Position numbers and translations under genes: made by a program. Positions 6,446 through 20,623 of a DNA stretch of 64,000 bases are shown one piece after another. Position 1 is the stretch's first letter. Every line of letters begins with the position of its first letter. Where the stretch lies: the NCBI GenBank assembly GCA_964592485.1, contig CAZQEY010000001.1, forward strand, positions 456-64,455. Direction: 5' to 3'. The DNA is from an uncultured Planctomycetales bacterium (GTDB taxonomy: Bacteria; Omnitrophota; Gorgyraeia; Gygaellales; JAHJCI01). The notes beneath the pieces were generated by a model. The model was given only the letters and a program-made list of their open reading frames with translations, was not told where the DNA came from and did no database searches.

Positions 6446-7133
6446 GGTTATCCGCCTCTTTATCGTTTTCGTTTATTTCGTTTGTTTTCTCTTTGGTCAA
6501 TTGTGTAATGTCCTTGGCTATTCCAGCCTGTTCAATGCGCATCTTAAGCGCGTTTATTCTGCCTTTTACTGCCTCATCCAAGACACCATTGTCAGTAGCT
6601 ATTTTCTCTAAAGTAATTAATTCTTCTTTTAACTCAACAAGGGTCTTTTCTTCATCTTGAGAATCATCGTGATGATAGATATTACTGATTATCTTCTGAG
6701 GTGCAGAAGGTAGATATCCTAAATTTTGCAGGCGTTCTACAGTCTGATTTTGAATTTCCCAGGCAAGGCGCTCGGCATTAATTCTTTCCTGCAAAGAGCC
6801 TTCACTTGAACGGGCAACCCGCATAAGATGCGCCACTTGTGACTTTGACTTGGTAATTAACTCGGCAATGAATTGCAAGGCTATTTCAGTAGTGGGTCTT
6901 TTAGAATTTCGCTGCCAGATATCCTCAAGGTCACGCTTGATAGTTTTCTCGCTCCTATCCAGTAACTGGGCAATAGCTGAGACAGAATAGCCTTCAAGAA
7001 TTAAAACTTCCACGCATTCTTGACGAGCCTCTTTGAATAAATCTTTTGCCTGTAGCATGCCATCTTTTATTTGTTTTAAAGTTTTATAGACTGGGATTTC
7101 TTCTTTGTTTGTAATTTGGTTATTATTTTCCAT
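6423..7133 (-). CDS. HTH DNA-binding protein (sigma-70 region 4-like), possibly the terminase small subunit
   Basis: ILEGYSVSAIAQLLDRSEKTIKRDL resembles a sigma70 r4 HTH. It sits immediately upstream of, and overlaps by 23 nt, the large terminase gene. The C-terminus is acidic. Confidence 0.4.
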   Translation of the reverse strand: MENNNQITNKEEIPVYKTLKQIKDGMLQAKDLFKEARQECVEVLILEGYSVSAIAQLLDRSEKTIKRDLEDIWQRNSKRPTTEIALQFIAELITKSKSQVAHLMRVARSSEGSLQERINAERLAWEIQNQTVERLQNLGYLPSAPQKIISNIYHHDDSQDEEKTLVELKEELITLEKIATDNGVLDEAVKGRINALKMRIEQAGIAKDITQLTKEKTNEINENDKEADNHAREDKQ

Positions 7134-7153
7134 ATTTAAATTACCTCTTTTTC

Positions 7154-8458
7154 TTATTTACCTATATATTTTTCAACCAACTCTTTTGAGACCTTATCTT
7201 CACCGACTGCCTTAATGTAGCGTTTGACTATGCCATCACAATAATAAGGATCGATTTCTATGCCAAAGCAAGTGCGGCTTAACATCTCAGCAGCAATCAA
7301 AGTTGTACCTGAGCCTAAGAAGACATCCATGACGATATCTTCTCTTTTTGAGCTATTTTTTATGGCTCTTGCAGCTAAAGCTATGGGCTTCTGAGTTGGA
7401 TGAATATAACTTGCCGTGTGATCACGTTTAACTTGCCAAAGAGTTGTTTCATTTACCGGCCCATACCAATTATGCACACCGTTATCTTCTTTCCAGCCAT
7501 ACATGCAGAATTCCGTCTGCTGATTATAATCGCCATAGCCTAAAGCGAAGCTCTCCTTTGCCCAGATTATTACGCAGGAAACATGATAACCGAGCCCTGT
7601 AAGCATCAGATACATCGGCCCAAATTGCTTATGGCCGTTCCAGAGATAGAAGCTTGAGCCTTTTTCAAGGTAAGGCGTAATATTGGTAAGGATTTGTTTC
7701 AGCCAGACTTCGTATTCTTCCTGAGTTAAGTTATCATTGTAAATTCTTTCCCAATTTTTTCCTCCTGTAGGCCGAGACTCTCTTGGATCAGGTCTATCGC
7801 CACCATAATAGTCAACGTTATAAGGTGGATCCGTAAAAATAAGATTTACTTTATTATTGCCTGTGAGTTTTGCTACGTCTTCAGGTTTTGAAGAATCACC
7901 GCAAAGGAGCTTGTGGCTGCCAAGTTCAATCAAGTCGCCTTTTTGAGTTACTGCTTCATCTTTATTAATCTCATCTTCAATATTGAAATTGTCTTCCTTT
8001 ATTTCTTCAGCCCTATCTAGGATTTGGCTTATTTCAGAAACGTCAAAGCCAGTCAAGACAACATCTAAATCTTGAGTTTTATTCAACTCGTTTAAAAGCA
8101 AAGCTAATTTCTCATCATCCCAATCGCCCCTTATCTTATTCAAAGCTAAATTGAGTGCTTTTTCTTTCTCAAGAGGTAAGTCAACTATGCTTGCCTCAAC
8201 TTCAATTAATCCCTGTCCAATAAGAATTTTCAGCCTCTGATGGCCGCTTACTAAATTGCCGGTTTGCCGATTCCAAACTAGCGGCTCAACATAACCAAAA
8301 GAATCGATACTGTTCTTAAGTTTTTCATATTCAGCGTCACCCGGCTTTAGATTAACTCGCGGGTTATATGCCGCGGGATTGATTTTTGAAATTGATATTT
8401 TTTGAATGTTCATTTTATTTCCCTCCTTATTTGTGAATTTAATCTTGGTCTTTCTCAT
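7154..8458 (-). CDS. ParB-like nuclease domain fused to an N6-adenine/N4-cytosine DNA methyltransferase (beta class)
   Basis: N-terminus ISKINPAAYNPRVN...SGHQRL (ParB-like). C-terminus IFTDPPYNVDY (motif IV DPPY) followed later by FLGSGTT (motif I), which is the beta-class order. This is the usual phage orphan methyltransferase next to terminase genes. Confidence 0.8.
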   Translation of the reverse strand: MRKTKIKFTNKEGNKMNIQKISISKINPAAYNPRVNLKPGDAEYEKLKNSIDSFGYVEPLVWNRQTGNLVSGHQRLKILIGQGLIEVEASIVDLPLEKEKALNLALNKIRGDWDDEKLALLLNELNKTQDLDVVLTGFDVSEISQILDRAEEIKEDNFNIEDEINKDEAVTQKGDLIELGSHKLLCGDSSKPEDVAKLTGNNKVNLIFTDPPYNVDYYGGDRPDPRESRPTGGKNWERIYNDNLTQEEYEVWLKQILTNITPYLEKGSSFYLWNGHKQFGPMYLMLTGLGYHVSCVIIWAKESFALGYGDYNQQTEFCMYGWKEDNGVHNWYGPVNETTLWQVKRDHTASYIHPTQKPIALAARAIKNSSKREDIVMDVFLGSGTTLIAAEMLSRTCFGIEIDPYYCDGIVKRYIKAVGEDKVSKELVEKYIGK

Positions 8459-8711: not shown

Positions 8712-8756
8712 TAAAAAAAGAAAAAAGGCCAAAAAATTTAATTATTTTTTGGCCTT
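8712..8756 (-). terminator. Rho-independent terminator ending the six-gene DISARM-like operon
   Basis: A 12-bp stem aaggccaaaaaa / ttttttggcctt followed on the minus strand by a long T-run. It lies ~190 nt after the 803-aa ORF stop. Confidence 0.55.
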
Positions 8757-8943
8757 TGGATACTTTATTTAACTTATTTATTTAGAAAGAGTTATGGGAA
8801 GAATAGTTTTCGTTAATTTTAAAAAATATATTGTAGATTTTAATTTCTGTATATTTTTAATATAACCTGTTGTAGAATAATAAGATAGGTATTATTTCTG
8901 GAGGATTTTGCTGTCTAAAGAATTAAATTAGGGAACCCCTTTT

Positions 8944-11355
8944 TTACATTTTTACGGTAAATTTCTTAGAAAGTAGCCGCAAAATTAGCTTCTGCTTTAG
9001 TAAAATGCGGTATTTTATCTCTAATACATTTCTTCCTTCATGAAATCTAATATAGTCTCGCCGTTGCACTTGCGGCAAATATTTTTCATATTTCTTGAAG
9101 ACTTTAATTACAAGTTGTTTTGCAATTCTATTCCACTTCTTCCCCCGTGACGATAAAGTTGCTATCCCATATTTCTCAAGAATAGCCGAAATATCGGCTT
9201 CATACTCTACCAATCTTTCAGAACAAATAACCCTTTCGTAACGTGCCGCATTCTCAATCAAGGAAATTTCCCCGGAACTCAAAATATTCTCAATCGGTTC
9301 CAGGATATTCTTTCCATATCTAAAGGGGTGAATAATGGGCAGAAAATTCTCCTGCTCTATTATAATCTTCGCAAGGTACTCCCATTTTTGCATATGAGTC
9401 TTGTTTTCTATTTTAAAATTACGTCCTATTAGACTTTGCATCTGGAGTAGATTTAAAAAATGGTATCTATAGAAAAATTTTTCATTCGAATGTAGAATTA
9501 ATTCCTCGCTTAAAAGTTTATCGATAACTTCCTTTAAAGGAGGCTCGCCGATTATCCGGCTTGCTAATTTCTGCTCAAGCTCTTTAATAGTCAAATATTG
9601 ATAATATTTAAGTAATGCAATTACAGTGCTTGCTAAAACTTTTTCCTTTCCTGTATCTTTAACTGCTGTTCCTGGAGTCAACTGGAACACTGGAATATTC
9701 TCTTTAAGGCGCATATTTTTAAGGGCGCAACTCTGGGCAAAGAAGGTTTTCCACATTCTCTCAGAAGACAACTCAAAAAGTTTTTGAAGATTTGGGTCGG
9801 TATATGTCTCCCTGTCCCAGCATATAAAAAATTTATTGCCAAAAATATCTTCAAAAAGAGAGGTAGGCTCATCGAATTCCCTAACATCTTTTTGAAGCAA
9901 TCTCCCGCATCCGGAAAAATATCTGCTCAGCTCTAAATGACCCCGCCAAAGATTCTGATCCATATTCAAGAAAAATGAACAAAGTTTAAATTCATCAACT
10001 AACATTTTTTCGCAAGTAGGTATACCTGCAAGGGTAAGTAAGCCTTCTTTAATTTCAGCTCTCTTAGAGCGCGCTATGAGAAATTCTGTGCGTGGAGTAA
10101 GCCTTGCTCTCCCTATATAAGGCATAATTCTCCACTGAGTCAGCAATATACTAGCAGGCCACTTTGCTGAACTCATATCTCTTATAATTGGATAAGTAGT
10201 TTTACAGCCAGCCATTATTTCTATCTCAGGGAATATAATTTTATAGTAATTGCTCCCTTGGTATTGTTTTTTTGCACTTGCTGAGGCATCAATTATGATT
10301 CCAAGCAATTCAGGAGGTAAGCCATTATCTCTTAATTCCTTAAAATCTATAGCCGATGGCAGGCGTGCTTTTAAATAATCTAAAAACTGCATGGGCATAG
10401 CGTTTAATTCATAACTTGCATTGGCAAAATGTACAAGTTTCTCTCTTAAACTCAAATCACTTATAGCTTCCCAGTCGCAAAATTGAATTACTTCAAAAAA
10501 TTTTTTTGTTTTTTCTTGGCTGCGCAAAAATTCTGAGTATATACCTTTAAAAATATCTGACACTGCTCCAGCAAATTGGACAATTTCGATATTTTTTTCA
10601 GCCGTAGGAGAACCTTCAATTAAGTCAATATCTAAACAGCCAAATGCAGATTTAAGCAACTCTATATCTGATTTGTAATAAATTAAAATTTGCCCAAACT
10701 GAGCAAGGGGTAATTCCTTATATATGTAATGGTAGTGAGGTCCTGGCAGCCATATGTTAGTGTGTTTCAGGAAAACAAAATCTCCGCAAACCTGAAACAA
10801 TTCCCTTGCAGGGAATGATCTCCCGTGAGCCTCTACCAAAGCATTTGTTTTATCTTTCACTTCCTCTAACTCACACTCGCCTGCTCTAAATAACATAGTA
10901 GCTAATCCATATTTATAGGCCAAAAGAGAATTTTCCCTGGCAAAAACCTTATGTTTCCCTAGCCTTTCTTTAATTTTGCAGGTTTTCAGCGACCTAGAAA
11001 CTGGAGAAAAGTAATGCCAATTATCCCCGCTGCCATCTGCAGGAATCGGAATTTCATAGAGCCTAAAGGGGCTCGCTTGAACTTCGCCTTTTATTGCTTT
11101 TGGCAAATGATTGGCTTTTTCTTGCAAACTTAAAGTTTTCACTCTAAGCCGCGCAAGTTCTAACGCAGCTTCTTCTGCCTTAGCTCTTGAGATAACTAAC
11201 TCGGGTCCTTTTATATATTTCCTTAAAAGTGGCGGGAGGCAAGAAAGGTCTAAATGGGTATCAAATAGAAACCTACACCTTTTAACTTCTACAGCTTGGT
11301 AATCTTCAAGGATTTTCTCACTATTTGCATTTTGAGATAATGTAGCCATGTTCAA
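8944..11355 (-). CDS. 803-aa protein of unknown function; last gene of the DISARM-like operon, possible DrmE-like accessory component
   Basis: Its start overlaps the upstream PLD gene by 35 nt, which suggests translational coupling. No recognisable catalytic motif and no TM segments. Confidence 0.5.
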   Translation of the reverse strand: MNMATLSQNANSEKILEDYQAVEVKRCRFLFDTHLDLSCLPPLLRKYIKGPELVISRAKAEEAALELARLRVKTLSLQEKANHLPKAIKGEVQASPFRLYEIPIPADGSGDNWHYFSPVSRSLKTCKIKERLGKHKVFARENSLLAYKYGLATMLFRAGECELEEVKDKTNALVEAHGRSFPARELFQVCGDFVFLKHTNIWLPGPHYHYIYKELPLAQFGQILIYYKSDIELLKSAFGCLDIDLIEGSPTAEKNIEIVQFAGAVSDIFKGIYSEFLRSQEKTKKFFEVIQFCDWEAISDLSLREKLVHFANASYELNAMPMQFLDYLKARLPSAIDFKELRDNGLPPELLGIIIDASASAKKQYQGSNYYKIIFPEIEIMAGCKTTYPIIRDMSSAKWPASILLTQWRIMPYIGRARLTPRTEFLIARSKRAEIKEGLLTLAGIPTCEKMLVDEFKLCSFFLNMDQNLWRGHLELSRYFSGCGRLLQKDVREFDEPTSLFEDIFGNKFFICWDRETYTDPNLQKLFELSSERMWKTFFAQSCALKNMRLKENIPVFQLTPGTAVKDTGKEKVLASTVIALLKYYQYLTIKELEQKLASRIIGEPPLKEVIDKLLSEELILHSNEKFFYRYHFLNLLQMQSLIGRNFKIENKTHMQKWEYLAKIIIEQENFLPIIHPFRYGKNILEPIENILSSGEISLIENAARYERVICSERLVEYEADISAILEKYGIATLSSRGKKWNRIAKQLVIKVFKKYEKYLPQVQRRDYIRFHEGRNVLEIKYRILLKQKLILRLLSKKFTVKM

Positions 11356-12160
11356 TCTCAGTAGACTTGTCCCATATAATATTAAATAGCCGCGTAAGTA
11401 CTTTTGCTTTATTTGCGGATTTAATAACCGCCCCTACTTCAAAATTATTGCAGAGCGCATTAAGCCTTATTTCTGCACTGCCAATATATACTTCTTTTAT
11501 TCCGCTTATAATCAGTTTTGCGTGAAGAGCTTCCACAACACTCTTCCTGCCCTTACTACTTTCTGCTATATACGAATAATTGGCGATTGAAATGTTTTTG
11601 CCAAAAAATGAAATAAGGTCATATAAACCTAAAATTTGGCTCACTGAGGGATTATCTATATCATCTATCCTGGTAATTAACCTAACAGAAACTTTTTGAT
11701 TTGCCGCCCGGCTAAATGCCTTTTCTAAATATTGAACTCCTCCCCTGTCCAGAAATGGCGAACAGATAAGCAACTCTGACTTACAGGAAGATATAATCTC
11801 GCTAATTAAATCTCTTATCTTCTGAATATTTAGAGTAGAAAGCGATTGCCTCAAAGAACTATGTAGCGTCGTAGCAATAAAGCAATTTTCAGAAACTTCT
11901 TTCGCATCGAGTGGCTTTATTTTTTTAATTTCTTTAGGAGGATGCGCAATTGTATCAGGGACTTTTGCTGCAATTAAACTCACCTTACTTCTTTCGAAAT
12001 CCGGATTATCTTCAATTATTGCCAAAGCTTCTGAGCCCATAAGTTGAAAAATTAACTCGCGCGCCTCTGGAGGCTTCATGCCTTTAGAAACAAAAAACTC
12101 AGTAAGCTGCCTAATTTCTAGAGGCCATTTCAAGCTAATTAATTCTCTTACGCCAGGCAT
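11321..12160 (-). CDS. Phospholipase D-family (HKD) nuclease; DrmC-like
   Basis: HKD motif LHAKLIISG...GSAEI (HxK...GSxN). 279 aa. It overlaps the upstream gene by 13 nt. Confidence 0.7.
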   Translation of the reverse strand: MPGVRELISLKWPLEIRQLTEFFVSKGMKPPEARELIFQLMGSEALAIIEDNPDFERSKVSLIAAKVPDTIAHPPKEIKKIKPLDAKEVSENCFIATTLHSSLRQSLSTLNIQKIRDLISEIISSCKSELLICSPFLDRGGVQYLEKAFSRAANQKVSVRLITRIDDIDNPSVSQILGLYDLISFFGKNISIANYSYIAESSKGRKSVVEALHAKLIISGIKEVYIGSAEIRLNALCNNFEVGAVIKSANKAKVLTRLFNIIWDKSTEIEHGYIISKCK

Positions 12161-13794
12161 TTATCCCAATATCCTATATTTTTACTTATAGTAACTACTA
12201 ATTTTCTGTCTAAGTTTGCATTGAACATTTCATTACATGACCTCTCAGCAATATATAAACACCCATGACACGCGGACGGTACATGAGCTTCGCATAAAGG
12301 GTCATAGGGGCAATTCTCTGCAGCATGCCTTGTTTTATGGAGCCAATTATACATCTGCGATTCAAAAGTTGACTTTAAAGCGCCTAACTCTGTGCCTTCA
12401 GTGCTGAAAATCACAAAAGACATTGCTGGGGTAAATACCATTTCCCCTAAGTTATCTCTGGATATTCCGCTAAAAATTTCACTCTGCCTGATCATGAGGT
12501 GGCTAATTGTATGAAGGAGAGTTTTTACTGCGGAAGGAATATCTCCTGCACAATCTCCGCTAGAAGTTAGCAAGATTTTCCGCAGTGATTTTTCATCCAA
12601 TTCTTTTCCTGATTTATTCAGCCAATTTACTACTCTTGCAGGTGACAATTCTACAAGGAGCGCCTCACTTTCATAACACCTCGTTAAGACATTATAATTC
12701 CCATACCCGGCATCAAATAATTGTAGTTTGGAATTAGCTTCATCTGTAGAGCCAACAAGGTAGCCATATACCATTGTTACTAGAGGTATACGGTCCAGGT
12801 AAAACAATTTTAACCCAAAATCTTTTTCTACCTTTGATGCCTCTGCCTCACTTAGCTTGCCGTCAAAAGCTATATGTGAGGTAGCGCCTTTATATTCGGA
12901 AAGCAGCCTCCTTACATTGAAAGAAATCTCTCCTATTTCCTCCCGGATAATTTCCTCTCGAGACCTCTCGCTGGGGTGCTTCTCTTTATAATCGGCAATC
13001 ATCTTTTCCTTGAAACTCTCATCAGCTTCCATATTCCGTTGAGCTATTTCTCTCATTGGCTCTGGCAAATCTCCCAGAATTTTCTCTTCAAGAGTGCCGC
13101 CCTCAAATCTAAACCACGAATCTATACACTCTTCCCAGCCCGAACCTACATCTACAGCGTTTATAGACATAGGCTTTATAGCAGAAGCTGCTGGCATAGG
13201 CTTCATTTTAACTCTATCGTCAGTTGAGCAATTACATAAATAGCTAAGGTGAACTTTAGTTTTGCAATTTGGGCAAAGCCATGTTGACTTAGCAAAATTC
13301 TCTTTCACAAGGTAAAGTTCAAAATAACTTTTCTTACATTCGTAACATAGCTTAGGTTTAATTTCCTGAATATTTCCGCATTGAGGGTGAGTAAATATGT
13401 GGACAATTTGCGAGAGCGAACTTTTACAATTTGGGCATATAAAGTCGCTTTCTTTAATATCTTTCTTCTTTTGCAAATCGTACACTTTATTGCACTGCGG
13501 GCATAAGAATGACGCCGGCGCTAACTCGGGGTCAATACTTCTATATTCTCTAAATTGAAATTGCCTCTTTGCAGGTAGCCGCTTACCTTTCCCTTCTGTA
13601 AGTCCCATTTCATGCCTGCATATCCTCTGTGTAATTATCCTTTCAAGCCTTACTTCATCGCGGACTTTTGCATTAGATAGAATTCGCTCATAATTATTCC
13701 CTGCCTTGCACATTATATCCCGAACGAGAAAATAAGCATTCGGGAATGCATAAAACAAAGCAGCAGATATACTCATTTCATTTCTCTTTATCAT
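12148..13794 (-). CDS. Cys-rich zinc-ribbon protein, DUF1998-like; DrmB-like
   Basis: Two N-terminal CxxC...CxxC zinc ribbons (CPQCNKV...CPNCKSS and CYECKKS...CPNCKTK) and a C-terminal CPYDPLCEAH...CHGC cluster. Its ATGA start overlaps the stop of the helicase gene. Confidence 0.55.
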   Translation of the reverse strand: MIKRNEMSISAALFYAFPNAYFLVRDIMCKAGNNYERILSNAKVRDEVRLERIITQRICRHEMGLTEGKGKRLPAKRQFQFREYRSIDPELAPASFLCPQCNKVYDLQKKKDIKESDFICPNCKSSLSQIVHIFTHPQCGNIQEIKPKLCYECKKSYFELYLVKENFAKSTWLCPNCKTKVHLSYLCNCSTDDRVKMKPMPAASAIKPMSINAVDVGSGWEECIDSWFRFEGGTLEEKILGDLPEPMREIAQRNMEADESFKEKMIADYKEKHPSERSREEIIREEIGEISFNVRRLLSEYKGATSHIAFDGKLSEAEASKVEKDFGLKLFYLDRIPLVTMVYGYLVGSTDEANSKLQLFDAGYGNYNVLTRCYESEALLVELSPARVVNWLNKSGKELDEKSLRKILLTSSGDCAGDIPSAVKTLLHTISHLMIRQSEIFSGISRDNLGEMVFTPAMSFVIFSTEGTELGALKSTFESQMYNWLHKTRHAAENCPYDPLCEAHVPSACHGCLYIAERSCNEMFNANLDRKLVVTISKNIGYWDKCLA

Positions 13795-16700
13795 TTCTTC
13801 AGCTCCTCTAAATCTTCATCTTCTCCAGTTTCTTCTCTTTCTACTTCTGTTTCTTCATCTACCGGCGCTTCTTTTACATTAATTTTCGCTAAGCCCGCTC
13901 GCTTTGCTGCTTCTACTGCAGAGTTATACTTTACCTCAACTTGCGGCTGAATATTTCGAAGGCTATAACGAAATTTGCCTTGGCTTTTAAAAGGGTCTGT
14001 TATAAATGAACTTGGATTTTCTTTAACAGCTTCCTTAAAGTATTCCCAAAAATCCTCAATTTTTTCCTCATATGCTCCGCTGCCATCATCTTGAGAGCGG
14101 TAAATGCGTTTAAGAATTCCCAGCATTTCCTTTTCAGGAAAGCCACTTTCTAAAGCATCTCTTACTCTATTGCACCAGCGGAAATCTTGCCCCATCTTTG
14201 GTCCAAAATGGAACAAAAGCAAAGAGACAACAATGTTATTAAATGTTTGGTCTATTGCTGTGCGCGCAAATCTATTCAGAGGAATACCTTCAAGTATTTT
14301 ATCAGCAGTATGTACAAATGGACTCCAATATGTATAATATGAAACATCTCTGTCCTTATTGGGGCCGAGGACTGCTAAACAGAAAGCAGGTTTTCTCCGA
14401 CCTGTCCTGTTAAGAGTCTGGATGAATTCGCTTACATTAGAAGGAAGGCCAAAGAAAAATATGCTATTAAGATTCTCTATATCAATGCCTATAGAGGCGA
14501 TGTTTGTTGCATATATAAGTTCTTGCTGACGATTTTTTATTTTCTCTACAACTGAAGCCACCTTTTCTTCTTCAAAGTGCCTGCCAGAAAGCTCAACATA
14601 GCGCAGTGGAGGCGACCCTCTCTGTACTCTTTTAGGATTTATAGCATTCTTTATCATTTCCTGAAGGGTGTTTATATTTTTGTATGAAGAACAATAAATC
14701 ATAATCTGAGAAATAGAATAAAGTGGGTGGTTTATGTTAACGTGGCTTATATCAAAGCCGTAAATTTCAGCAAGAGTTTCAAAGTAAATATTACATAAGT
14801 CTGGTATAGCCCATGTTAATGGCCTATCTTGCGGCAATAAAGCAAGGGTTATATGTTTTAATTCGCTCTTCTCTATATAATATGCTCGGCTTTCTTTTTG
14901 GGGAGGCAGAATTATAGATTCTCCCTTGCCTACAAATCCAAGCTGGAACATGTGCCTCTTTATATAAGCAATAGTTGCTGTAGAAACAATAGGAATAGGG
15001 TATACACCAGTGTTTGCTTTGAAGATTTCTGCATAATCTGTCTCTATATGTGAATTTAATGTTCCTTCCGGCCCTCTGATTAAATGGCCTTCATCTAAAA
15101 TCAGAATACCAGGCTTTACTACTTGCTTTGAATTAGATAAGTCTCTCTTACAATCTGGGCAGCGGTTTCCAAGCATATAGCCGTGGTTTGGGCAAAAATA
15201 GGCTTCAATACCTAATAGGTTCCTTAACTTTTGCTGCATGGACCTTGCTATGAATTTATCCCACGTTGCAATCAAAAAACTTGGCACCTGAAAAAATATC
15301 TCATCTCCTATACCTAATGTGAGCCTATGCCCTTTTTCGCATATAAGTTGAGACGCGCCTGCGCAAAACTTTTTTTCTTCTTTCCATTCGCTATTGCAAA
15401 CTCCTCTTCCTGAAATAGGCCTTGGACATTTGCTTATAATATCTTTTGGCGACTCATAGGCCCCCTTCTTGCCAACAAAATATCCTATTCCTGCTGGCTC
15501 TCCTAAAATTTCATCCAAAACAATACTATATCCAGCAAGCCTCCGCGCCTGATCACTGCTTAACAGTGTAACAGGGTATTTGATTATATTAATTGACTTA
15601 GAACCTTTTTGTTTCTCAAAAAAGATAGCCCACATAGCCGCCGAAAGGAAACTCTCTGTTTTGCCTCCAGCAGTTGGAATATTTAGCACTATTGGCTGAA
15701 GATCCATTTTTCCCTTTAGGTAACAACTGGCAGCTACAAGCAAAGTAACTAATTGGTGACAATACCAAGGCACCTCTTTTCCAAAACACCGACCGTATAC
15801 TTCTGATACTTTCTTAAACGCACCCATACCTTGTGGAGAACGCTTAATTTCTTCAGCGCACTCCTTAAGAAAAGAAATATGAGCATCACTAGCTCCTGCT
15901 TTTTCTAATATCGAAATAACTGAATCTATGGCTTCTCCAGGAGCTTCTGCGGCTTCCTTAAATGTGGGGCCTTTCCTGGGTTCTTCCATCTGCGTTTTTG
16001 ACTTAGCAATTGGTGTAAAAATTAGTTCTTTTTCTGTACTTAGCTCTTTATCAAAGGAAATATTAGCACTAAATGCTTCTACATTATAGTCATCCAGAAC
16101 GGGGCATTTAAAATCCATTAGCGAATTCTCTTTTAAGCCAATTTTTATTCTTACATCGAACCAGTTTGACTCTCCAGCCGCCCTGCTTTTGCCGCTATAC
16201 GTGTTCGCCAATATTATAGAGACTAGCGAAGCCCCATCTTCCCTTATTTCAGAATTAACAGCAATACTGCCTTGCCAGTTTGGCGAATCTCCTAAAGATT
16301 TATAACTTTCTCTGAAATCTGCAAGGTCTAATTCTACAAAGTTATTTTCAAGACTGAGCCTAAATGTTTTGGCATAACGCTTTCTAATAAATACAGTCTG
16401 ACTTTGCGCTTCTCCTTTCTCTGGAGCCGGCGCGCTCTGACTAGAATGTGTTCCGTTAACCGGTGATTGAGATAGTCTTTCTCTCCAATCTTTCCATATT
16501 TCATCTTCTTTTATCTCATCAGCTAATCCTCTTAAGTCTTGCAAAACTTTACCTTTTAACGGCGCCTTTGCCCGAAAGTACAGCGTAAAAGAGGGAGTAA
16601 TACTTATATCCTTAAGCTCCCCCTGTACTCTAAATTGCACCTTACAAGAGCTAGGTGCAACTTTACTTTTATATTCAAAGTTTCTCCTATTTGAGTCAGA

Positions 16701-16850
16701 TTCTGAGGCTGGAAACAACATCCCTGTATTAAACTTATCAGAAGGCAGTGAATCTGTTACTAATCTTTGGCTATCGCAATTGCCAAGCACTCTTTTAATA
16801 AAACTATCTGAAAAATCAATTACCGCTTTTGAAAGTTGATCTTGAAACAT
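13791..16850 (-). CDS. Large SF2 helicase (1019 aa); DrmA-like
   Basis: Walker A NIPTAGGKTESFL, motif II ILILDEGH (DEGH), motif III STATIA, motif VI QTLNRTGRR. There is an ~350-aa N-terminal domain of unknown function. Confidence 0.7.
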   Translation of the reverse strand: MFQDQLSKAVIDFSDSFIKRVLGNCDSQRLVTDSLPSDKFNTGMLFPASESDSNRRNFEYKSKVAPSSCKVQFRVQGELKDISITPSFTLYFRAKAPLKGKVLQDLRGLADEIKEDEIWKDWRERLSQSPVNGTHSSQSAPAPEKGEAQSQTVFIRKRYAKTFRLSLENNFVELDLADFRESYKSLGDSPNWQGSIAVNSEIREDGASLVSIILANTYSGKSRAAGESNWFDVRIKIGLKENSLMDFKCPVLDDYNVEAFSANISFDKELSTEKELIFTPIAKSKTQMEEPRKGPTFKEAAEAPGEAIDSVISILEKAGASDAHISFLKECAEEIKRSPQGMGAFKKVSEVYGRCFGKEVPWYCHQLVTLLVAASCYLKGKMDLQPIVLNIPTAGGKTESFLSAAMWAIFFEKQKGSKSINIIKYPVTLLSSDQARRLAGYSIVLDEILGEPAGIGYFVGKKGAYESPKDIISKCPRPISGRGVCNSEWKEEKKFCAGASQLICEKGHRLTLGIGDEIFFQVPSFLIATWDKFIARSMQQKLRNLLGIEAYFCPNHGYMLGNRCPDCKRDLSNSKQVVKPGILILDEGHLIRGPEGTLNSHIETDYAEIFKANTGVYPIPIVSTATIAYIKRHMFQLGFVGKGESIILPPQKESRAYYIEKSELKHITLALLPQDRPLTWAIPDLCNIYFETLAEIYGFDISHVNINHPLYSISQIMIYCSSYKNINTLQEMIKNAINPKRVQRGSPPLRYVELSGRHFEEEKVASVVEKIKNRQQELIYATNIASIGIDIENLNSIFFFGLPSNVSEFIQTLNRTGRRKPAFCLAVLGPNKDRDVSYYTYWSPFVHTADKILEGIPLNRFARTAIDQTFNNIVVSLLLFHFGPKMGQDFRWCNRVRDALESGFPEKEMLGILKRIYRSQDDGSGAYEEKIEDFWEYFKEAVKENPSSFITDPFKSQGKFRYSLRNIQPQVEVKYNSAVEAAKRAGLAKINVKEAPVDEETEVEREETGEDEDLEELKK

Positions 16851-17532
16851 TATTCAAACTCCTTTTTCCATAGTTACAAAAATTTTGTAAAACGCACCTT
16901 TGGCATTTCGGAAACTGATTACGGCAGCAGTCGCGCCCAAGACTAATGCAATTAACATGATACGAATATCTTTTCTGAAGAGGTATTAATTTTTCTAACC
17001 TGTGGTGCGCCTCTGCTAAACTAATATGCTGAGGAATCAAACCTAACCTACATGAAATCCTGAAGACGTTAATATCAACTGGCAAAACACCCCTGCTCAA
17101 TGAATACATTAAAATACAGTAGGCCGACTTAATACCAAGCCCCGGCAAACCCATTAAGTAGTCTAATGCCTCCGGAGTTTCTAATTTTTTAAGCCAGGCC
17201 AAACTTACTATTCCTCTATCCTTATAAATCTTTTTTATCAAGTTCTTTATTTGCCCTGCCTTTTGATTTTCAAGACCGCTCGATTTAATTACATTAGCTA
17301 TATTCTTTATTGGCATCTTCAATATATTTTTCCAGACTTTACATTTGCCTTTTAATTTTTTGTACGCCTCGGAAAATCTCTGTCCGTCAGTTTGTTTTGA
17401 TAGTATTATATAAATGGCTTCATCAAGCGGATTACTCTTGTTCCCATGTCTTGAATTTCCATATTTTTCAAGTCTGCGAATTATCTTATAAATGTCTTTC
17501 CGGGAGGATACTTTCTTAATCTTAACTTTCAT
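16816..17532 (-). CDS. HhH-GPD / endonuclease III-family DNA glycosylase with a [4Fe-4S] loop
   Basis: HhH motif LPGLGIKSAYCIL...PVDINVFRI. C-terminal C-x6-C-x2-C-x5-C (CRNQFPKCQRCVLQNFC) is the Nth/MutY iron-sulfur signature. It lies 16 nt after the methyltransferase gene and overlaps the helicase start by 35 nt. Confidence 0.75.
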   Translation of the reverse strand: MKVKIKKVSSRKDIYKIIRRLEKYGNSRHGNKSNPLDEAIYIILSKQTDGQRFSEAYKKLKGKCKVWKNILKMPIKNIANVIKSSGLENQKAGQIKNLIKKIYKDRGIVSLAWLKKLETPEALDYLMGLPGLGIKSAYCILMYSLSRGVLPVDINVFRISCRLGLIPQHISLAEAHHRLEKLIPLQKRYSYHVNCISLGRDCCRNQFPKCQRCVLQNFCNYGKRSLNNVSRSTFKSGN

Positions 17533-17548
17533 AGTCTAACTATAAAAT

Positions 17549-18472
17549 TCATTTGGGAAATGGACTAATAACTGCTTTTGCAACTGATGGGGACACTGCA
17601 TTGCCTATTTGCCAATATTTTGCCTCTAAAGAATCTTCTACCTTAAAATTATCCGGAAAACTCTGAATCCTTGCACATTCTTTCCACGAAAGTCTTCTAT
17701 GCCTAGACCCTTTGGGTAATATCCATTTATCTTCGCTCACATATACCATTGGCTTGCCCATTGGATGAAGAGGTACATGCCTCCAATTTGCCAAAATACA
17801 GTAACTTACTTCATCCCAACCACGTTTTCTATTTCTTGAAAGATAATACCATGGGAAACCTTCATCATAAAACTCACCTTCTGGCCACCTGGGTAAATCC
17901 CATATAGAATCTCGAAGAGTCACGTAATTTTTTAACCCTGGGCCATGAGTTGGTTTAGGGAATGTATATTGAAAGTCTACACTTTTTTTTACTCCGACAA
18001 TAAATATTCTCTTCCTATCCTGCGGAACCCCAAAGTCTTTAGCATCTAATACTTCCCATTTAACTGCATACCCAGCTGCTCTATAAGCTTTTAGCTGGTT
18101 CTTTAAAAATCTTCCATTATAGAGAACTGCCATACCATTTACATTTTCTGCTATGAAAAATTTTGGCTTTATTGTTTTTATACATCTAAGAAACTGCCTG
18201 TAAAGGTAATTTCTTTCATCAAATGATTTTCTATTCCCTCCCACACTGAAACCTTGGCAAGGATAACAACCTACAGCCATATCTGCCTTAGGAAAATTCT
18301 TTACATTATCAATATCGCCACGAAAGAATTCAACCTCTGGAAAGTTTGCTATATAAGATTTTGCTGCGGGAGGATATATATCATTAGCCCATATGATTTT
18401 GTGACCTGCTAGCTTAACCCCGAAATCAAAACCGCCACAACCAGAAAATAAAGATATAACTTTTAAAGGCAT
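17549..18472 (-). CDS. DNA (cytosine-5)-methyltransferase; DrmMII-like
   Basis: Motif I FSGCGGFDFG, motif IV GCYPCQGFS (PCQ), motif VI ENVNG, motif X QIGNAV. Confidence 0.85.
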   Translation of the reverse strand: MPLKVISLFSGCGGFDFGVKLAGHKIIWANDIYPPAAKSYIANFPEVEFFRGDIDNVKNFPKADMAVGCYPCQGFSVGGNRKSFDERNYLYRQFLRCIKTIKPKFFIAENVNGMAVLYNGRFLKNQLKAYRAAGYAVKWEVLDAKDFGVPQDRKRIFIVGVKKSVDFQYTFPKPTHGPGLKNYVTLRDSIWDLPRWPEGEFYDEGFPWYYLSRNRKRGWDEVSYCILANWRHVPLHPMGKPMVYVSEDKWILPKGSRHRRLSWKECARIQSFPDNFKVEDSLEAKYWQIGNAVSPSVAKAVISPFPK

Positions 18473-18790
18473 TATTTATTTCCCTTTATCTGATTTTTCC
18501 GCCACTCATTTATTTCTTTTTTATCGAATCTCCACTGCCCACCAAATTTAAAAGCCGGGATTTTTCTTTCCCGGCTTAATCTTCTTATTGAATAAGGAGC
18601 AATTTAAGGACTTCTGCTATTTCTTTAACTGTATGAACCTCGGATAATTCCCCCATTAAGGCTCCTGTTACATTTTGTTATATATTATATCGCCAATTTA
18701 TTCTCTCCACAATCAAAAAATACCTCTTTAAAATACTCTATTTGCCTTGATATCTCTCGAAATATATGGCTATATATGACCTGAGGTGAG

Positions 18791-19252
18791 ATGACCGTGA
18801 AAGAAAAATTGCAATCCGAGATAGAAAAACTAAATAATGCAACTTTTGAACAAGTTCAAGAAAAATATCATGAGCTTTTTGATGTTAAAGAGATACCTTG
18901 TGGCAATAAAAGTTACTTGCTAAAGAGAATTATTTACAAATTACAAGAAATCGAATATGGCGGTTTATCAAAAGAAGCTAAAAATAAAATTGAAGAATTA
19001 ACTAAAGAATTCGATCCTATTAATAATATTGCTCTCAGGCCAAGCATTCCGAAAGAAAGAGTATTCTTACGAGATAGGCGCCTTCCTATTCCGGGGACAG
19101 TAATCATTAAAGAATATAAAGGCAATAATTTCAAAGTTAAAGTCTTAGAAAGGGGTTTTGAATATAATGGCAAGATTTTTAAATCCCTTACTGCGATAGC
19201 TAAAGAAATAACCGGGGCTCATTGGAACGGATATTTATTTTTTAATCTATGA
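18791..19252 (+). CDS. DUF2924-family protein; the usual partner of large serine recombinases
   Basis: RRLPIPGTVIIKEYKGNNFKVKVLERGFEYNGKIFKSLTAIAKEITGAHWNGYLFF matches the DUF2924 consensus (...ITGtrWNGwrFFgl). Its stop overlaps the recombinase start (ATGA). Confidence 0.5.
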   Translation: MTVKEKLQSEIEKLNNATFEQVQEKYHELFDVKEIPCGNKSYLLKRIIYKLQEIEYGGLSKEAKNKIEELTKEFDPINNIALRPSIPKERVFLRDRRLPIPGTVIIKEYKGNNFKVKVLERGFEYNGKIFKSLTAIAKEITGAHWNGYLFFNL

Positions 19253-20622
19253 AAGACGAAAAGAAAACTAAACAAGAAAAGAAACAAAACTTCTGTGCTA
19301 TTTATACGCGCGTCTCCACTGCTGAAAACTTAGAACAGGAATTTACTTCTTTGGATGCCCAGCGCGAATCTGCTGAAAGCTACATCTTAAGCCAAAAATC
19401 TGAAGGTTGGATCGCTCTAACAGAACATTATAATGACGCCGGTTATACCGGAGCAAATACAGATAGACCTGCCTTGCAAAGGCTTATCCAAGATATCAAA
19501 GATAGAAAAATTAACTGTGTTGTAGTTTATAAAGTAGATAGATTATCTCGTTCTTTGCTTGATTTCAGCCAGCTTTTAGAATTTTTTGAGCAACATAATG
19601 TGGCTTTTGTTTCAGTAACGCAAAATTTTAACACTAACACTTCTATGGGGCGATTAACCTTGAATATCCTACTTTCTTTTGCTCAATTTGAAAGAGAAAT
19701 CATTAGTGAAAGAACGCGTGATAAGATGGGTGCTGCCAAAAAGAAAGGCAAATGGATCGGCGGAAGGCCGCCTTTAGGCTATGATCTTGATAGGGTAAAC
19801 CATAAGCTTGTAATAAATCCAAAGGAAGCTAAGCTCGTGCGTAAAATATTCGACCTATATCTTGAAAAACGCTCGCTTTTGGCTGTAACTATTGCCTTAA
19901 ATGAACAAGGCTTCAAGACAAAGAGCTATATCACGCTTCAAGGTAGAACCTTCGGTGGAATTAAATTTAAAAACACGGGAATTCAACTAATTTTAAAGAA
20001 TATTTATTATACCGGTAAAGTCAAATACAATGGCGAAATCTATCCAGGCGAACAAGAGCGCATAATATCCGATGAAACATTTCAAAGGGCTCAAGAAATC
20101 TTAATCGAAAACAGACCAGAACGAAAAATTACCCAAAATGCCAAAAATATTGGCTTACTTAGCGATATTTTGCGCTGTAAAAACTGCAATTGTTCGATGT
20201 ATTATGCCTACGCTATAAAAGGCAAATATAAATACCACTATTATCTCTGTATGAATGCTCAAAAGCGCGGCTACAAAAGCTGTCCTACGCGCTTAATCAA
20301 CGCTCAGGCTATTGAAAATAAAGTAATCGAATGCCTCAAAAATATTATCAATGATAAGGAAAAACCAAACAAAATTTTAAAAATATTAAATAAGGGGCCC
20401 TCAAAGGAAAAAGCCATAACTATGGAAAAACTTAGAGATGTCATAATGGTAAATTCCCCACTCTGGGGAAATTTCAGCCTTAAAGAAAAGAGGCGAATGC
20501 TTATGTTAATTGTTAAAGGTATGGACTATGATTCCAAAAATGGAGTTTTAGGAATTACCCTGAATGAAAATGGACTAAAATTCTTATGTGCAAATATAGA
20601 TTTCAATCAAAAGGATAGGTAA
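19249..20622 (+). CDS. Large serine recombinase (integrase)
   Basis: N-terminal resolvase domain AIYTRVSTAENLEQ...DAQRE with the catalytic Ser in RVST, a recombinase domain, and a C-terminal zinc ribbon CKNCNC...CMNAQKRGYKSC. Confidence 0.85.
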   Translation: MKDEKKTKQEKKQNFCAIYTRVSTAENLEQEFTSLDAQRESAESYILSQKSEGWIALTEHYNDAGYTGANTDRPALQRLIQDIKDRKINCVVVYKVDRLSRSLLDFSQLLEFFEQHNVAFVSVTQNFNTNTSMGRLTLNILLSFAQFEREIISERTRDKMGAAKKKGKWIGGRPPLGYDLDRVNHKLVINPKEAKLVRKIFDLYLEKRSLLAVTIALNEQGFKTKSYITLQGRTFGGIKFKNTGIQLILKNIYYTGKVKYNGEIYPGEQERIISDETFQRAQEILIENRPERKITQNAKNIGLLSDILRCKNCNCSMYYAYAIKGKYKYHYYLCMNAQKRGYKSCPTRLINAQAIENKVIECLKNIINDKEKPNKILKILNKGPSKEKAITMEKLRDVIMVNSPLWGNFSLKEKRRMLMLIVKGMDYDSKNGVLGITLNENGLKFLCANIDFNQKDR

Positions 20623-20623
20623 A

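What the first reader, a model, noticed from the sequence alone, without database searches (positions are those of the whole stretch)
8712..18472. Six-gene DISARM-like operon with a non-canonical gene set
The six coupled genes are: a C5-cytosine methyltransferase, an EndoIII-like [4Fe-4S] glycosylase, a 1019-aa SF2 helicase, a 548-aa Cys-rich DUF1998-like protein, a PLD/HKD nuclease and an 803-aa unknown. The methyltransferase + helicase + DUF1998 + PLD core matches class-2 DISARM (DrmMII, DrmA, DrmB, DrmC). The glycosylase between the methyltransferase and helicase, and the long unknown protein at the 3' end, are not in the published gene set. Overlaps of 35, 4, 13 and 35 nt argue for a single translationally coupled unit ending at a strong terminator. 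This may be an undescribed DISARM subtype or a related restriction-like system.
Basis: partly seen in the sequence, partly recalled or inferred. Interest (0 to 1): 0.8.

Follow-up and report, generated by a model that had tools for sequence, protein, structure and literature searches.

The report
Rare DISARM-like defence operon variant
This operon on a mobile island is a rare, divergent relative of the DISARM anti-phage system: the usual helicase, zinc protein and nuclease are joined by an uncatalogued DNA-binding protein, and by a cytosine methylase that was always seen with a repair-type DNA glycosylase.

Summary
The six minus-strand genes, their overlaps and the terminator are real. Domain calls hold: M.HaeIII-like C5 methyltransferase, EndoIII-type [4Fe-4S] glycosylase, DrmA-like helicase, DrmB-like DUF1998 protein and DrmC-like PLD. 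All DISARM matches fall far below curated cut-offs, so this is a deep DISARM-like branch.

The 803-aa protein ("X") is not detectably DrmE. None of 27 family members hits a DrmE model, and hhalign gives probability 0.2%. X belongs to a very small uncurated family (33 representatives among 1.84 billion). A confident model (pLDDT 87.5) shows OB folds, a winged helix and a C-terminal Alba domain, with no enzyme fold.

X lies next to DrmABC-like genes in all 11 systems examined, so the conserved core is DrmA-DrmB-DrmC-X. The modification module varies: C5 methylase plus glycosylase (4 loci, shuffled gene order), a BrxP-like PAPS reductase (1), or neighbouring 7-deazaguanine genes (1). The glycosylase was seen only with the C5 methylase. 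That fits best with repair of 5-methylcytosine damage, but it carries Lys where Mig has Tyr and resembles ROS1, so an effector role is not excluded.

Verdict: new variant of a known kind, of moderate to good interest.

The parts
18472..18656 (-). Frameshifted small excisionase/MerR-type HTH gene, the first gene of the operon. Its stop (TAA) overlaps the methylase ATG. A TATAAT hexamer lies at 18689-18684.
   Evidence: Three-frame translation. The N-terminal part is MGELSEVHTVKEIAEVLK. The C-terminal part is IAPYSIRRLSRERKIPAFKFGGQWRFDKKEINEWRKNQIKGNK. The two lie in different frames and could be joined by adding one A to an A-run. The same frameshift is present in Logan contig L001. An intact 59-aa orthologue sits directly upstream of the methylase in L002. 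Sequence read.
17549..18472 (-). C5-cytosine DNA methyltransferase (DrmMII role), M.HaeIII-like over its full length.
   Evidence: Pfam PF00145 2.4e-70. PADLOC DruM 6e-114, MTase_II 4.5e-86 and DrmMII 1.6e-58. PDB M.HaeIII 1dct 4.2e-54 over residues 4-300. Orthologues in L002, L006 and L007 are 80, 60 and 50% identical.
16816..17532 (-). HhH-GPD [4Fe-4S] DNA glycosylase of the EndoIII-1/ROS1-like lineage. It keeps the lyase Lys (GIKS), the catalytic Asp (VDIN) and the C-X6-C-X2-C-X5-C cluster.
   Evidence: Pfam PF00730 8.5e-11. NCBIfam DR2438-type 1.1e-40, below cut-off. PDB D. radiodurans EndoIII-1 7e-31, ROS1 2e-19 and Mig 1kea 2e-12, with residue alignments. Alignment with orthologues, the L011 Mig-type enzyme and E. 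coli Nth.
13791..16850 (-). DrmA-like SF2 (YprA-family) helicase. Motifs I (PTAGGKTE), II (DEGH), III (STAT) and VI (QxxNRxGR) are intact. It has Cys-rich insertions and a variable low-complexity loop at about residues 100-165.
   Evidence: Pfam Helicase_C 6.9e-12. PADLOC DrmA 4.2e-35. NCBIfam DrmAS 1e-34, but 119.7 bits against a cut-off of 950. PDB DrmA 7s9v_A 2e-19. Alignment A4.
12148..13794 (-). DrmB-like protein: N-terminal zinc ribbons plus a C-terminal DUF1998/MZB domain.
   Evidence: PADLOC DrmB 3.9e-28. NCBIfam DrmB_fam 1e-14, 54 bits against a cut-off of 240. PDB DrmB 7s9v_B 4e-7 with all four Zn cysteines aligned. The L004 orthologue hits Pfam PF09369 at 24.4 bits against a gathering score of 24.2. 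The window copy gives no PF09369 hit at E<=10.
11321..12160 (-). DrmC-like PLD-family nuclease with an N-terminal extension of about 110 aa. The H and K of the HKD motif are kept. The D is replaced by G in the window and in L002.
   Evidence: Pfam PLDc_2 9e-11. PADLOC DrmC 2.3e-12. NCBIfam DrmC_I 1.5e-9, below cut-off. HKD alignment.
8944..11355 (-). Protein X (803 aa; 801 aa from ATG 11349). It is a non-enzymatic multi-domain nucleic-acid-binding protein with OB folds, a winged helix (about residues 570-630) and a C-terminal Alba-like domain (about residues 707-800). It is the signature fourth core component.
8724..8757 (-). Intrinsic terminator that closes the operon.
   Evidence: 14-bp stem plus U-run. 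Folding energy -16.8 kcal/mol, z -4.55.

Best explanation
This is a member of a rare, so far unclassified DISARM-like class, closest to class 2.

Shown:
- The conserved core has four genes: a DrmA-like helicase, a separately encoded DrmB-like DUF1998 zinc protein, a DrmC-like PLD nuclease and protein X. X is a family-specific protein of about 800 aa built from OB folds, a winged helix and an Alba domain.
- In the window's sub-clade the core is coupled to an M.HaeIII-like C5 methyltransferase and an EndoIII-1/ROS1-like glycosylase. These two genes always occur together.
- A small HTH gene heads the operon. It is frameshifted here.

Inferred mechanism, by analogy with characterised DISARM:
- The methylase marks host DNA at a short site, possibly GGCC-like.
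- DrmA-DrmB loads on exposed single-stranded or 5'-overhang DNA of invaders, translocates using ATP, and is restrained by methylated self DNA.
- X has RPA/CST-like OB and winged-helix modules and no catalytic fold. It probably acts as the DNA-binding or sensing accessory subunit, in the place that DrmE or DrmD holds in the known classes.
- DrmC is an accessory nuclease.
- The glycosylase most likely serves the methylase rather than the restriction core. It would remove T (or other damaged 5-methylpyrimidines) arising from 5-methylcytosine, as Vsr does for Dcm and Mig does for M.MthTI.

The whole unit rides on an integrative element.
For: DISARM-likeness:
- PADLOC, NCBIfam and PDB best hits are DrmA, DrmB and DrmC.
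- The four Zn cysteines of DUF1998 align with Serratia DrmB.
- The orthologue passes Pfam PF09369.
- Helicase and DUF1998 are encoded by separate genes followed by a PLD gene. Bell et al. 2025 call this arrangement DISARM-specific.
- The helicase motifs are intact.

X as a core component:
- The X HMM hits only 12 of about 170 loci sampled, and each has adjacent DrmABC-like genes.
- X is 24-84% identical across these loci.
- dN/dS is 0.14.
- 79 canonical DISARM loci have no X.

X fold.

X is not DrmE:
- 0 of 27 family members hit the PADLOC DrmE models. Those models do detect the DrmE of L009 at 1.8e-14.
- hhalign probability is 0.2%.

Modular modification:
- C5 methylase + glycosylase occur in the window, L002, L006 and L007, in three different gene orders.
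- L170 has a BrxP-like PAPS reductase instead.
- L172 has 7-deazaguanine genes nearby.
- L008 and L089 have neither within the contig.
- A rough neighbour-joining tree of DrmB separates the methylase+glycosylase sub-clade from the others and places the whole group nearer a DrmE-bearing class-2-like locus than the class-1-like loci.

Glycosylase tied to the methylase:
- It was seen only with a C5 methylase.
- An unrelated, Mig-type HhH-GPD enzyme (Tyr at the Lys position, PADLOC PDLC03398 4.8e-40) sits next to the C5 methylase of a canonical DISARM locus, L011.

Mobile context: DUF2924 protein plus large serine recombinase, and tRNA-His.

Mechanistic analogy: Bravo et al. 2022 and Aparicio-Maldonado et al. 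2021.
Against: - No experiment exists for any member. Anti-phage activity is inferred only.
- All DISARM HMM matches are partial and far below curated cut-offs (for example DrmA 120 bits against 950). Functional equivalence with characterised DrmAB is therefore an extrapolation.
- The window's PLD has lost the Asp of HKD.
- The leading HTH gene is frameshifted.
- The glycosylase has Lys at the position where Mig has Tyr126, and MIG Y126K loses T:G glycosylase activity. Its nearest characterised relatives are D. radiodurans EndoIII-1 and plant ROS1. A Vsr-like T:G role therefore rests on context, not on active-site similarity to Mig.
- The absence of methylase and glycosylase in L008 and L089 is limited by short contigs.
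- Only 11 systems were examined.
- The DrmB tree is a rough neighbour-joining tree without support values.
Confidence: 0.7

Rival explanations
1. This is an ordinary class 2 DISARM. X would be a highly diverged DrmE, and the glycosylase an incidental Vsr-like passenger of the methylase. Nothing would be new beyond sequence divergence.
For: Class 2 is defined as DrmABC + DrmMII +/- DrmE, a protein of unknown function. The PADLOC DrmE models are 790 and 821 positions long, similar to X at 745-840 aa. In L172, X lies directly upstream of DrmA, the position the DrmE-like gene holds in L009. The DrmB tree puts the group next to the DrmE-bearing locus L009.
Against: None of 27 X-family members hits any DrmE model at E<=0.01, and three of them give no hit at E<=10. 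NCBIfam gives no hit. hhalign of the X profile against the DrmE-like protein of L009 gives probability 0.2%. That test used a single DrmE sequence and no structure, so remote homology is not excluded.
Confidence: 0.2
2. The glycosylase/AP-lyase is part of the restriction machinery, not a repair accessory. It would excise a base from invader DNA, for example a modified pyrimidine or 5mC in a foreign sequence context. It would then nick the DNA, creating the ends or single-stranded entry sites on which DrmAB loads.
For: The enzyme keeps the Schiff-base Lys and catalytic Asp of bifunctional enzymes. It is closer to ROS1, which excises 5mC and T, than to Mig. In L006 it is encoded at the opposite end of the operon from the methylase, directly after X, and in L007 also directly after X, overlapping it. 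It is under purifying selection. DrmAB needs single-stranded or 5'-overhang DNA.
Against: It is absent from X-type systems that use other modification modules or none (L170, L089, L008). That would be unexpected for an effector of the conserved core. An unrelated Mig-type glycosylase accompanies the C5 methylase in a canonical DISARM locus (L011), which points to a need linked to 5mC. A 5mC-excising enzyme beside a C5 methylase would risk self-damage.
Confidence: 0.2
3. The locus is a chance juxtaposition of independent modules in a defence island, not one system. The modules would be an orphan methylase with its repair glycosylase, a DrmABC cassette, and an unrelated 803-aa gene.
For: The methylase-glycosylase pair is dispensable in some relatives. 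Defence islands do pile up unrelated systems. Another Type II methylase module lies immediately downstream.
Against: The same six families co-occur at 27-92% identity in four loci with three gene orders. The genes overlap or abut and share one terminator. X is adjacent to DrmABC-like genes in 11 of 11 systems and was never found elsewhere in the loci sampled.
Confidence: 0.05

Closest known systems
DISARM class 2 (Bacillus paralicheniformis type: DrmE, DrmA, DrmB, DrmC, DrmMII)
   Same: Both have a split helicase and DUF1998 gene pair followed by a PLD nuclease. Both use a C5-cytosine methyltransferase as the modification enzyme and carry one extra protein of about 800 aa with no recognisable enzymatic domain. 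Both sit in a mobile or defence-island context.
   Different: The extra protein X is not detectably DrmE. An EndoIII-type glycosylase and a small HTH gene are added. DrmA, DrmB and DrmC score far below curated thresholds. DrmA is shorter (1019 aa against about 1165-1330) and DrmB carries additional N-terminal zinc ribbons. Gene order differs: methylase first and X last.
DISARM class 1 (Serratia sp. SCBI: DrmD, DrmMI, DrmA, DrmB, DrmC; structures 7s9v and 7s9w)
   Same: These are the nearest solved structures for the helicase and the DUF1998 protein, and the zinc cysteines are conserved. This is the probable source of the mechanistic analogy: loading on single-stranded DNA, autoinhibition and sensitivity to methylation.
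   Different: The window has no SNF2 DrmD and no N6-adenine DrmMI. None of 79 canonical (mostly class-1-like) loci has X, this glycosylase or a C5 methylase matching the subtype models. They form a separate branch in the DrmB tree.
Mig.MthI with M.MthTI, and Vsr with Dcm (repair enzymes encoded beside C5 methylases)
   Same: A DNA repair enzyme is genetically coupled to a C5 methylase. Mig is also an HhH-GPD [4Fe-4S] enzyme. The PADLOC/REBASE-derived model PDLC03398 ('Type II nicking endonuclease', 221 positions) matches the window enzyme at 3.9e-14 and the L011 enzyme at 4.8e-40. The pairing of Mig with M.MthTI is cited from my own knowledge (Horst and Fritz 1996), not from a tool result.
   Different: The window enzyme has Lys where Mig has Tyr126 and belongs to the EndoIII-1/ROS1-like lineage with a 9-residue insertion. 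Its substrate is unknown.
Plant ROS1/DEMETER 5-methylcytosine glycosylases and D. radiodurans EndoIII-1
   Same: These are the closest characterised sequence relatives of the glycosylase (7e-31 and 2e-19). They share the Lys, the Asp, the FeS cluster and the insertion before the HhH motif. ROS1 excises 5mC and, less well, T.
   Different: The window enzyme has no ROS1-type extra domains. It sits in a prokaryotic defence operon, and no activity data exist.
[quoted passage not shown] 2025)
   Same: All have a YprA-family helicase plus a PLD nuclease plus a variable DNA-modification module. An Alba-like domain is reported fused to the Dpd helicase. One X-family locus (L172) lies beside 7-deazaguanine genes. 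The paper acknowledges many uncharacterised DISARM-like classes.
   Different: In the window the Alba domain is on a separate OB / winged-helix protein. The helicase and DUF1998 are split as in DISARM. The window has no deazaguanine genes. The paper's text mentions no glycosylase, PAPS reductase or DrmE.

Membership tests
DISARM (core definition) | DrmA: SF2 helicase with pfam00271 | tested here: met
   PF00271 6.9e-12. PADLOC DrmA 4.2e-35. Best PDB hit DrmA 7s9v_A 2e-19. Motifs I, II, III and VI are intact.
DISARM (core definition) | DrmB: DUF1998 (pfam09369) protein encoded as a separate gene directly after the helicase | tested here: met
   PADLOC DrmB 3.9e-28. All four Zn cysteines align with Serratia DrmB. 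The 61%-identical orthologue passes PF09369 at 24.4 bits against 24.2. Caveat: the window copy itself gives no PF09369 hit at E<=10. The split arrangement is read.
DISARM (core definition) | DrmC: PLD (pfam13091) nuclease after DrmB | tested here: met
   PF13091 9e-11. PADLOC DrmC 2.3e-12. H and K are conserved, and the Asp of HKD is replaced by Gly in the window and L002.
DISARM (core definition) | DNA methyltransferase in the operon | tested here: met
   PF00145 2.4e-70. The gene heads the same overlapping gene string.
DISARM (core definition) | Proteins reach the curated family thresholds (NCBIfam DrmAS/DrmAL, DrmB_fam, DrmC_I) | tested here: not met
   DrmA 119.7 bits against 950. DrmB 54.3 against 240. 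DrmC 37.7 against 133. For comparison, canonical loci score 532-1370 bits on the PADLOC DrmA models, against 119 for the window protein.
DISARM class 2 | C5-cytosine methyltransferase DrmMII (pfam00145) | tested here: met
   PADLOC DrmMII 1.6e-58, although the DruM and MTase_II models score higher.
DISARM class 2 | DrmE (required by the PADLOC type II definition; 'on occasion' present according to Aparicio-Maldonado et al.) | tested here: not met
   No DrmE hit for X or for 26 relatives. The DrmE models work on L009. hhalign probability 0.2%. Fold-level homology was not tested.
DISARM class 1 | SNF2 helicase DrmD and N6-adenine methylase DrmMI | tested here: not met
   No such genes in or next to the operon.
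DISARM (function) | Protection against phage or plasmid; methylation-dependent self-protection | not testable with these tools
   No experimental data exist for any member of this group.
Mig-type T:G mismatch glycosylase (companion of C5 methylases) | HhH-GPD fold with a [4Fe-4S] cluster, encoded beside a C5 methylase | tested here: met
   PF00730 and the C-X6-C-X2-C-X5-C cluster. It co-occurs with a C5 methylase in all 4 loci where it was seen, and is adjacent to it in 3 of them.
Mig-type T:G mismatch glycosylase (companion of C5 methylases) | Tyr (Mig Y126) at the position of EndoIII Lys120, making a monofunctional enzyme | tested here: not met
   Lys in the window, L002, L006 and L007. Tyr in the L011 enzyme. 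MIG Y126K loses glycosylase activity.
Housekeeping endonuclease III (Nth) | Reaches the nth equivalog threshold | tested here: not met
   TIGR01083 73.9 bits against 211.7. PRK10702 60.4 against 405.
Dpd / BRIGADE | 7-deazaguanine biosynthesis and insertion genes with an unsplit YprA helicase | tested here: not met
   None in the window. Such genes were seen only near the distant X-family locus L172.

The most novel reading that the evidence does not exclude
DrmABC-X would be a distinct class of DISARM-like immunity. An RPA/CST-like OB / winged-helix / Alba protein would be the invader-DNA sensor, and the self-marking chemistry would be freely exchangeable: 5mC, BrxP-type modification or 7-deazaguanine. 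In the 5mC branch, the ROS1-like glycosylase/lyase would be an active player. It could be the nicking effector that creates DrmAB entry sites. Alternatively it could be a prokaryotic 5-methylpyrimidine glycosylase related to the ancestors of plant DEMETER/ROS1.
Probability: 0.15. Interest if true: 0.8.

Novelty: new variant of a known kind. Interest (0 to 1): 0.6.

Why it matters
DISARM is one of the least understood widespread defence systems. The roles of its class-specific accessory proteins, DrmD and DrmE, are still open.

This lineage keeps the DrmABC core but replaces the accessory with a protein whose confident model is purely DNA-binding (OB, winged helix, Alba). It also swaps modification modules between relatives. 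That gives a natural experiment for asking what the accessory subunit and the modification each contribute.

The strict pairing of a C5 methylase with an EndoIII-1/ROS1-like glycosylase is a second, independent example, besides Mig and Vsr, of repair enzymes recruited to 5mC-based self-marking. It also offers a bacterial relative of the plant 5mC glycosylases for biochemical study.

In practice, these systems score far below the curated NCBIfam DISARM thresholds, and X matches no PADLOC model. Adding profiles for X and for this DrmA/DrmB clade would let defence annotation find them.

Tried and rejected
1. X as DrmE. PADLOC at E<=10 on three X proteins, PADLOC, NCBIfam and Pfam on 27 family members, and hhalign against the DrmE-like protein of L009 were all negative.

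2. Word-indexed homologue searches for X and DrmB found only near-identical copies. The exhaustive HMMER search was needed to find the family.

3. The genome-contig scan with the X alignment found nothing. Wider X alignments had no stretch conserved enough for pattern search.

4. The metagenome scan with the DrmA alignment returned mainly unrelated helicases, because the pattern used was the Walker A motif. Only L009-L012 were informative.

5. The viral-contig scan with DrmB found no relative, so there is no evidence that the system is carried by phages.

7. Host taxonomy could not be determined. Cluster look-ups carry no names. tmRNA and an AsmA/DUF748 protein only indicate a diderm bacterium.

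8. The 'terminator-like' hairpin at 18552-18577 upstream of the methylase was rejected as a terminator. It lies inside the coding sequence of the frameshifted HTH gene.

9. GGCC specificity of the methylase remains a hint only. It rests on full-length similarity to M.HaeIII and a GGCC observed/expected ratio of 0.62, while GATC (0.28) and CTAG (0.47) are more depleted.

Full report
**Observation**

The window carries six minus-strand ORFs exactly as described:

| Coordinates | Length |
|---|---|
| 17549-18472 | 307 aa |
| 16816-17532 | 238 aa |
| 13791-16850 | 1019 aa |
| 12148-13794 | 548 aa |
| 11321-12160 | 279 aa |
| 8944-11355 | 803 aa |

- The overlaps are 35, 4, 13 and 35 nt, with a 16-nt gap after the first gene.
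- The overlap lengths depend on start choice. Gene callers use ATG 11349 for the last gene (801 aa, 29-nt overlap).
- The orthologous locus L002 shows overlaps of 0, 14, 4, 13 and 29 nt.
- The operon ends at a genuine intrinsic terminator at 8757-8724. It has a 14-bp stem plus U-run, -16.8 kcal/mol, z = -4.55.
- Between the window and L002 all six genes have dN/dS of 0.05-0.17.

**Domain identities**

- *Gene 1* is a C5 methyltransferase (PF00145, 2.4e-70). Its nearest solved relative over the full length, target-recognition region included, is M.HaeIII (4.2e-54).
- *Gene 2* is an HhH-GPD enzyme with a C-X6-C-X2-C-X5-C cluster.
  - Its best solved relatives are D. radiodurans EndoIII-1 (7e-31), plant ROS1 (2e-19) and, more distantly, Mig (1kea, 2e-12).
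  - It keeps the Schiff-base Lys (GIKS) and the catalytic Asp (VDIN).
- *Gene 3* hits DrmA models (PADLOC 4.2e-35; NCBIfam DrmAS 1e-34; PDB 7s9v_A 2e-19) and has intact helicase motifs.
- *Gene 4* hits DrmB (PADLOC 3.9e-28; PDB 7s9v_B 4e-7). The four DUF1998 zinc cysteines align.
  - The window copy does not hit Pfam PF09369.
  - Its 61%-identical orthologue does, at 24.4 bits against a gathering score of 24.2.
- *Gene 5* is a PLD protein with DrmC as its best family. H and K of the HKD motif are kept, but the Asp is Gly here and in L002.
- *Gene 6*, protein X, has no Pfam, PADLOC or NCBIfam match.

All the DISARM matches are partial and far below NCBIfam cut-offs (120 against 950 bits, 54 against 240, 38 against 133). 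This is therefore a deep DISARM-like branch, not a canonical member.

Published class 2 DISARM is DrmA, DrmB, DrmC and DrmMII plus DrmE, a large protein of unknown function. DrmE is required by PADLOC's type II definition and is 'on occasion' present according to Aparicio-Maldonado et al.. The real question is therefore whether X is DrmE. By sequence it is not.

- The PADLOC DrmE models (790 and 821 positions) detect the DrmE-like protein upstream of a canonical class-2-type DrmA in L009 (1.8e-14).
- Those models hit none of 27 X-family members. Three X proteins give no hit even at E<=10.
- hhalign of the X family profile against the L009 protein gives probability 0.2%.
- Fold-level homology could not be tested.

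**Protein X**

- Word-indexed searches found only a copy identical but for the two-residue start difference and an 84%-identical copy.
- An exhaustive HMMER scan of 1.84 billion representatives found 33 relatives (25 below 1e-10), mostly 650-840 aa long.
- With 27 of them as an alignment, AlphaFold2 gave a confident model (pLDDT 87.5, pTM 0.86).
- Foldseek finds HIN-200-type tandem OB folds (7e-5).
- The family profile also reaches Alba sequences in the PDB (7e-4), and 4 of 27 members weakly hit Pfam Alba.
- No catalytic fold was detected.

X therefore looks like a multi-domain DNA-binding subunit. The binding itself is an inference from the fold.

**Gene neighbourhoods**

Eleven distinct X-bearing systems were examined.

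| Locus | Gene order or content |
|---|---|
| window | HTH*-MT-GLY-A-B-C-X |
| L002 | HTH-MT-GLY-A-B-C-X |
| L004 | (contig cut) A-B-C-X |
| L005 | (contig cut) C-X |
| L006 | MT-A-B-C-X-GLY |
| L007 | A-B-C-X-GLY-MT |
| L008 | A-B-C-X |
| L089 (Anaerolineales MAG) | AbiEii ... A-B-C-X |
| L169 | (contig cut) C-X-integrase |
| L170/L171 | PAPS reductase-A-B-C-X |
| L172 | X-A-B-C, beside QueC, GCHY-1, PTPS and Q_salvage genes |

HTH* marks the frameshifted copy.

- All six window proteins have clear orthologues in L002, L006 and L007: methylase 50-80%, glycosylase 39-82%, DrmA 38-86%, DrmB 35-92%, PLD 25-80% and X 27-84% identical.
- The X HMM hit nothing else among about 170 loci.
- None of 79 canonical DISARM loci from representative genomes has X, this glycosylase or a matching C5 methylase.
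- The conserved core is therefore DrmA-DrmB-DrmC-X, and the modification module is exchangeable.
- The L170 enzyme is BrxP-like (1.4e-15).
- A rough neighbour-joining tree of DrmB groups all X-associated DrmBs except the L172 one. It separates the methylase+glycosylase sub-clade from the L008/L089/L170 sub-clade. It places the group nearer the DrmE-bearing L009 than the class-1-like loci.

**The glycosylase**

- It was seen only where a C5 methylase is present (4 loci). It was not seen in four X-type loci that lack one, within the limits of those contigs.
- A canonical DISARM locus (L011; DrmA 1370 bits on PDLC02571) carries a C5 methylase next to an HhH-GPD enzyme of a different lineage.
  - That enzyme has Tyr at the EndoIII-Lys120 position, as Mig does, and matches the REBASE-derived PADLOC model PDLC03398 at 4.8e-40.
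- Two lineages of HhH-GPD enzymes recruited beside DISARM C5 methylases argue for a need linked to 5mC. The classic such need is removal of T from T:G after deamination of 5mC, as done by Vsr and Mig.
- Against a simple Mig analogy, the window enzyme has Lys at that position, and MIG Y126K loses T:G glycosylase activity.
- Its relatives include ROS1, which excises 5mC and, less well, T.
- In L006 and L007 it follows X rather than the methylase.

I therefore rate the repair role most likely, at roughly 0.55-0.6. An effector or nicking role gets about 0.2.

**Mechanism**

Shown:
- the gene content;
- conservation of the gene set;
- the modularity of the modification genes;
- intact catalytic motifs of the helicase, methylase and glycosylase;
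- the non-enzymatic DNA-binding fold of X;
- the mobile context.

Inferred by analogy with Serratia and Bacillus DISARM:
- Methylation marks self DNA.
- DrmAB loads on single-stranded or 5'-overhang invader DNA and translocates.
- X supplies DNA binding or sensing, in the place of DrmE or DrmD.
- DrmC is an accessory nuclease.
- The variable, low-complexity loop at DrmA residues of about 100-165 may correspond to the trigger loop. This was not tested.

**Literature**

- No paper in the held library combines DISARM/DrmA with a glycosylase.
- Bell et al. [quoted passage not shown]
  - They describe the split helicase/DUF1998 genes plus PLD as DISARM-specific.
  - They report an Alba-like domain fused to the Dpd helicase.
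  - Their text mentions no glycosylase, PAPS reductase or DrmE.
- The present system is best seen as one of those uncharacterised classes.

**Context**

- The operon lies on an integrative element. A DUF2924 protein and a large serine recombinase are encoded divergently upstream (18791-20622), near tRNA-His (21341-21414).
- G+C content is lower at 8-22 kb than at 22-36 kb.
- Relatives also sit beside recombinases or integrases.
- The system is rare. Only one of 185,579 species-representative genomes has a subtype DrmB, and none was found in the viral contigs.

**Verdict**

- This is a new variant of a known kind: a DISARM-like class defined by DrmABC plus an OB / winged-helix / Alba protein, here with a C5 methylase and glycosylase module.
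- Interest is 0.6.

Noticed in passing
window 18472-18656 (-): A small excisionase/MerR-type HTH gene directly upstream of the methylase is split by a 1-nt frameshift in an A-run, and its stop overlaps the methylase ATG. The same frameshift is in Logan contig L001. L002 has an intact 59-aa orthologue. It could be a controller-type regulator that has been inactivated here, or a homopolymer sequencing error.
   Followed up: partly
window 4766-8458 (-): Immediately downstream of the terminator lies a second module. It consists of a ParB_N + N6/N4 methyltransferase (434 aa; PADLOC MTase_II PDLC03229 1e-113), a 236-aa HTH protein and a 559-aa protein with no family hit. This may be another restriction-modification-like unit. 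The same arrangement is seen in L003.
   Followed up: partly
window 18791-21414: A DUF2924 protein, a large serine recombinase and a 124-aa ORF are encoded divergently from the operon, next to tRNA-His. G+C is 0.34-0.40 at 8-22 kb and 0.43-0.46 at 22-36 kb. This is a likely boundary of an integrative element. The att sites were not mapped.
   Followed up: no
window, whole: Palindromic 4-mers are under-represented: GATC (observed/expected 0.28), CTAG (0.47) and GGCC (0.62). The GGCC depletion is compatible with, but not proof of, a GGCC-type methylase or restriction history.
   Followed up: partly
L170 457-9336: A distant relative of the system has a BrxP/DndC/SspD-like PAPS-reductase gene in place of the C5 methylase and has no glycosylase.
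   Followed up: partly
L172 1-20891: A 1017-aa X-family member lies upstream of DrmA-, DrmB- and PLD-like genes. Nearby are 7-deazaguanine genes (QueC/radical-SAM, GCHY-1, PTPS, Q_salvage), an Ogg-HhH protein and a UvrD + PD-(D/E)XK pair. This suggests a link between this family and Dpd-like systems.
   Followed up: no
L011 2237-12062: A canonical DISARM locus (full-length PADLOC DrmA, plus DrmB and DrmC) has a divergently encoded C5 methylase paired with a Mig-type HhH-GPD glycosylase, which has Tyr at the Lys120 position. A 538-aa unknown gene lies between them.
   Followed up: partly
L002 9892-11367: In the closest relative, the operon is followed by a DUF4062 + HATPase_c_4 protein. It matches PADLOC pAgo-associated and SIR2-PNTD models (7e-23), so it is a different neighbouring defence gene.
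   Followed up: no
window 32138-32545 (-): A tmRNA gene (Rfam 181 bits). ARAGORN predicts an unusually long tag peptide (ANTQVSRLGTTLQSPVMAGPMFLPVFGLN). The tag prediction may be wrong.
   Followed up: no
L008 1-282: The truncated gene upstream of this relative's DrmA contains a JAB/MPN-like motif (EWHSHVESPD). It probably belongs to a neighbouring system.
   Followed up: no
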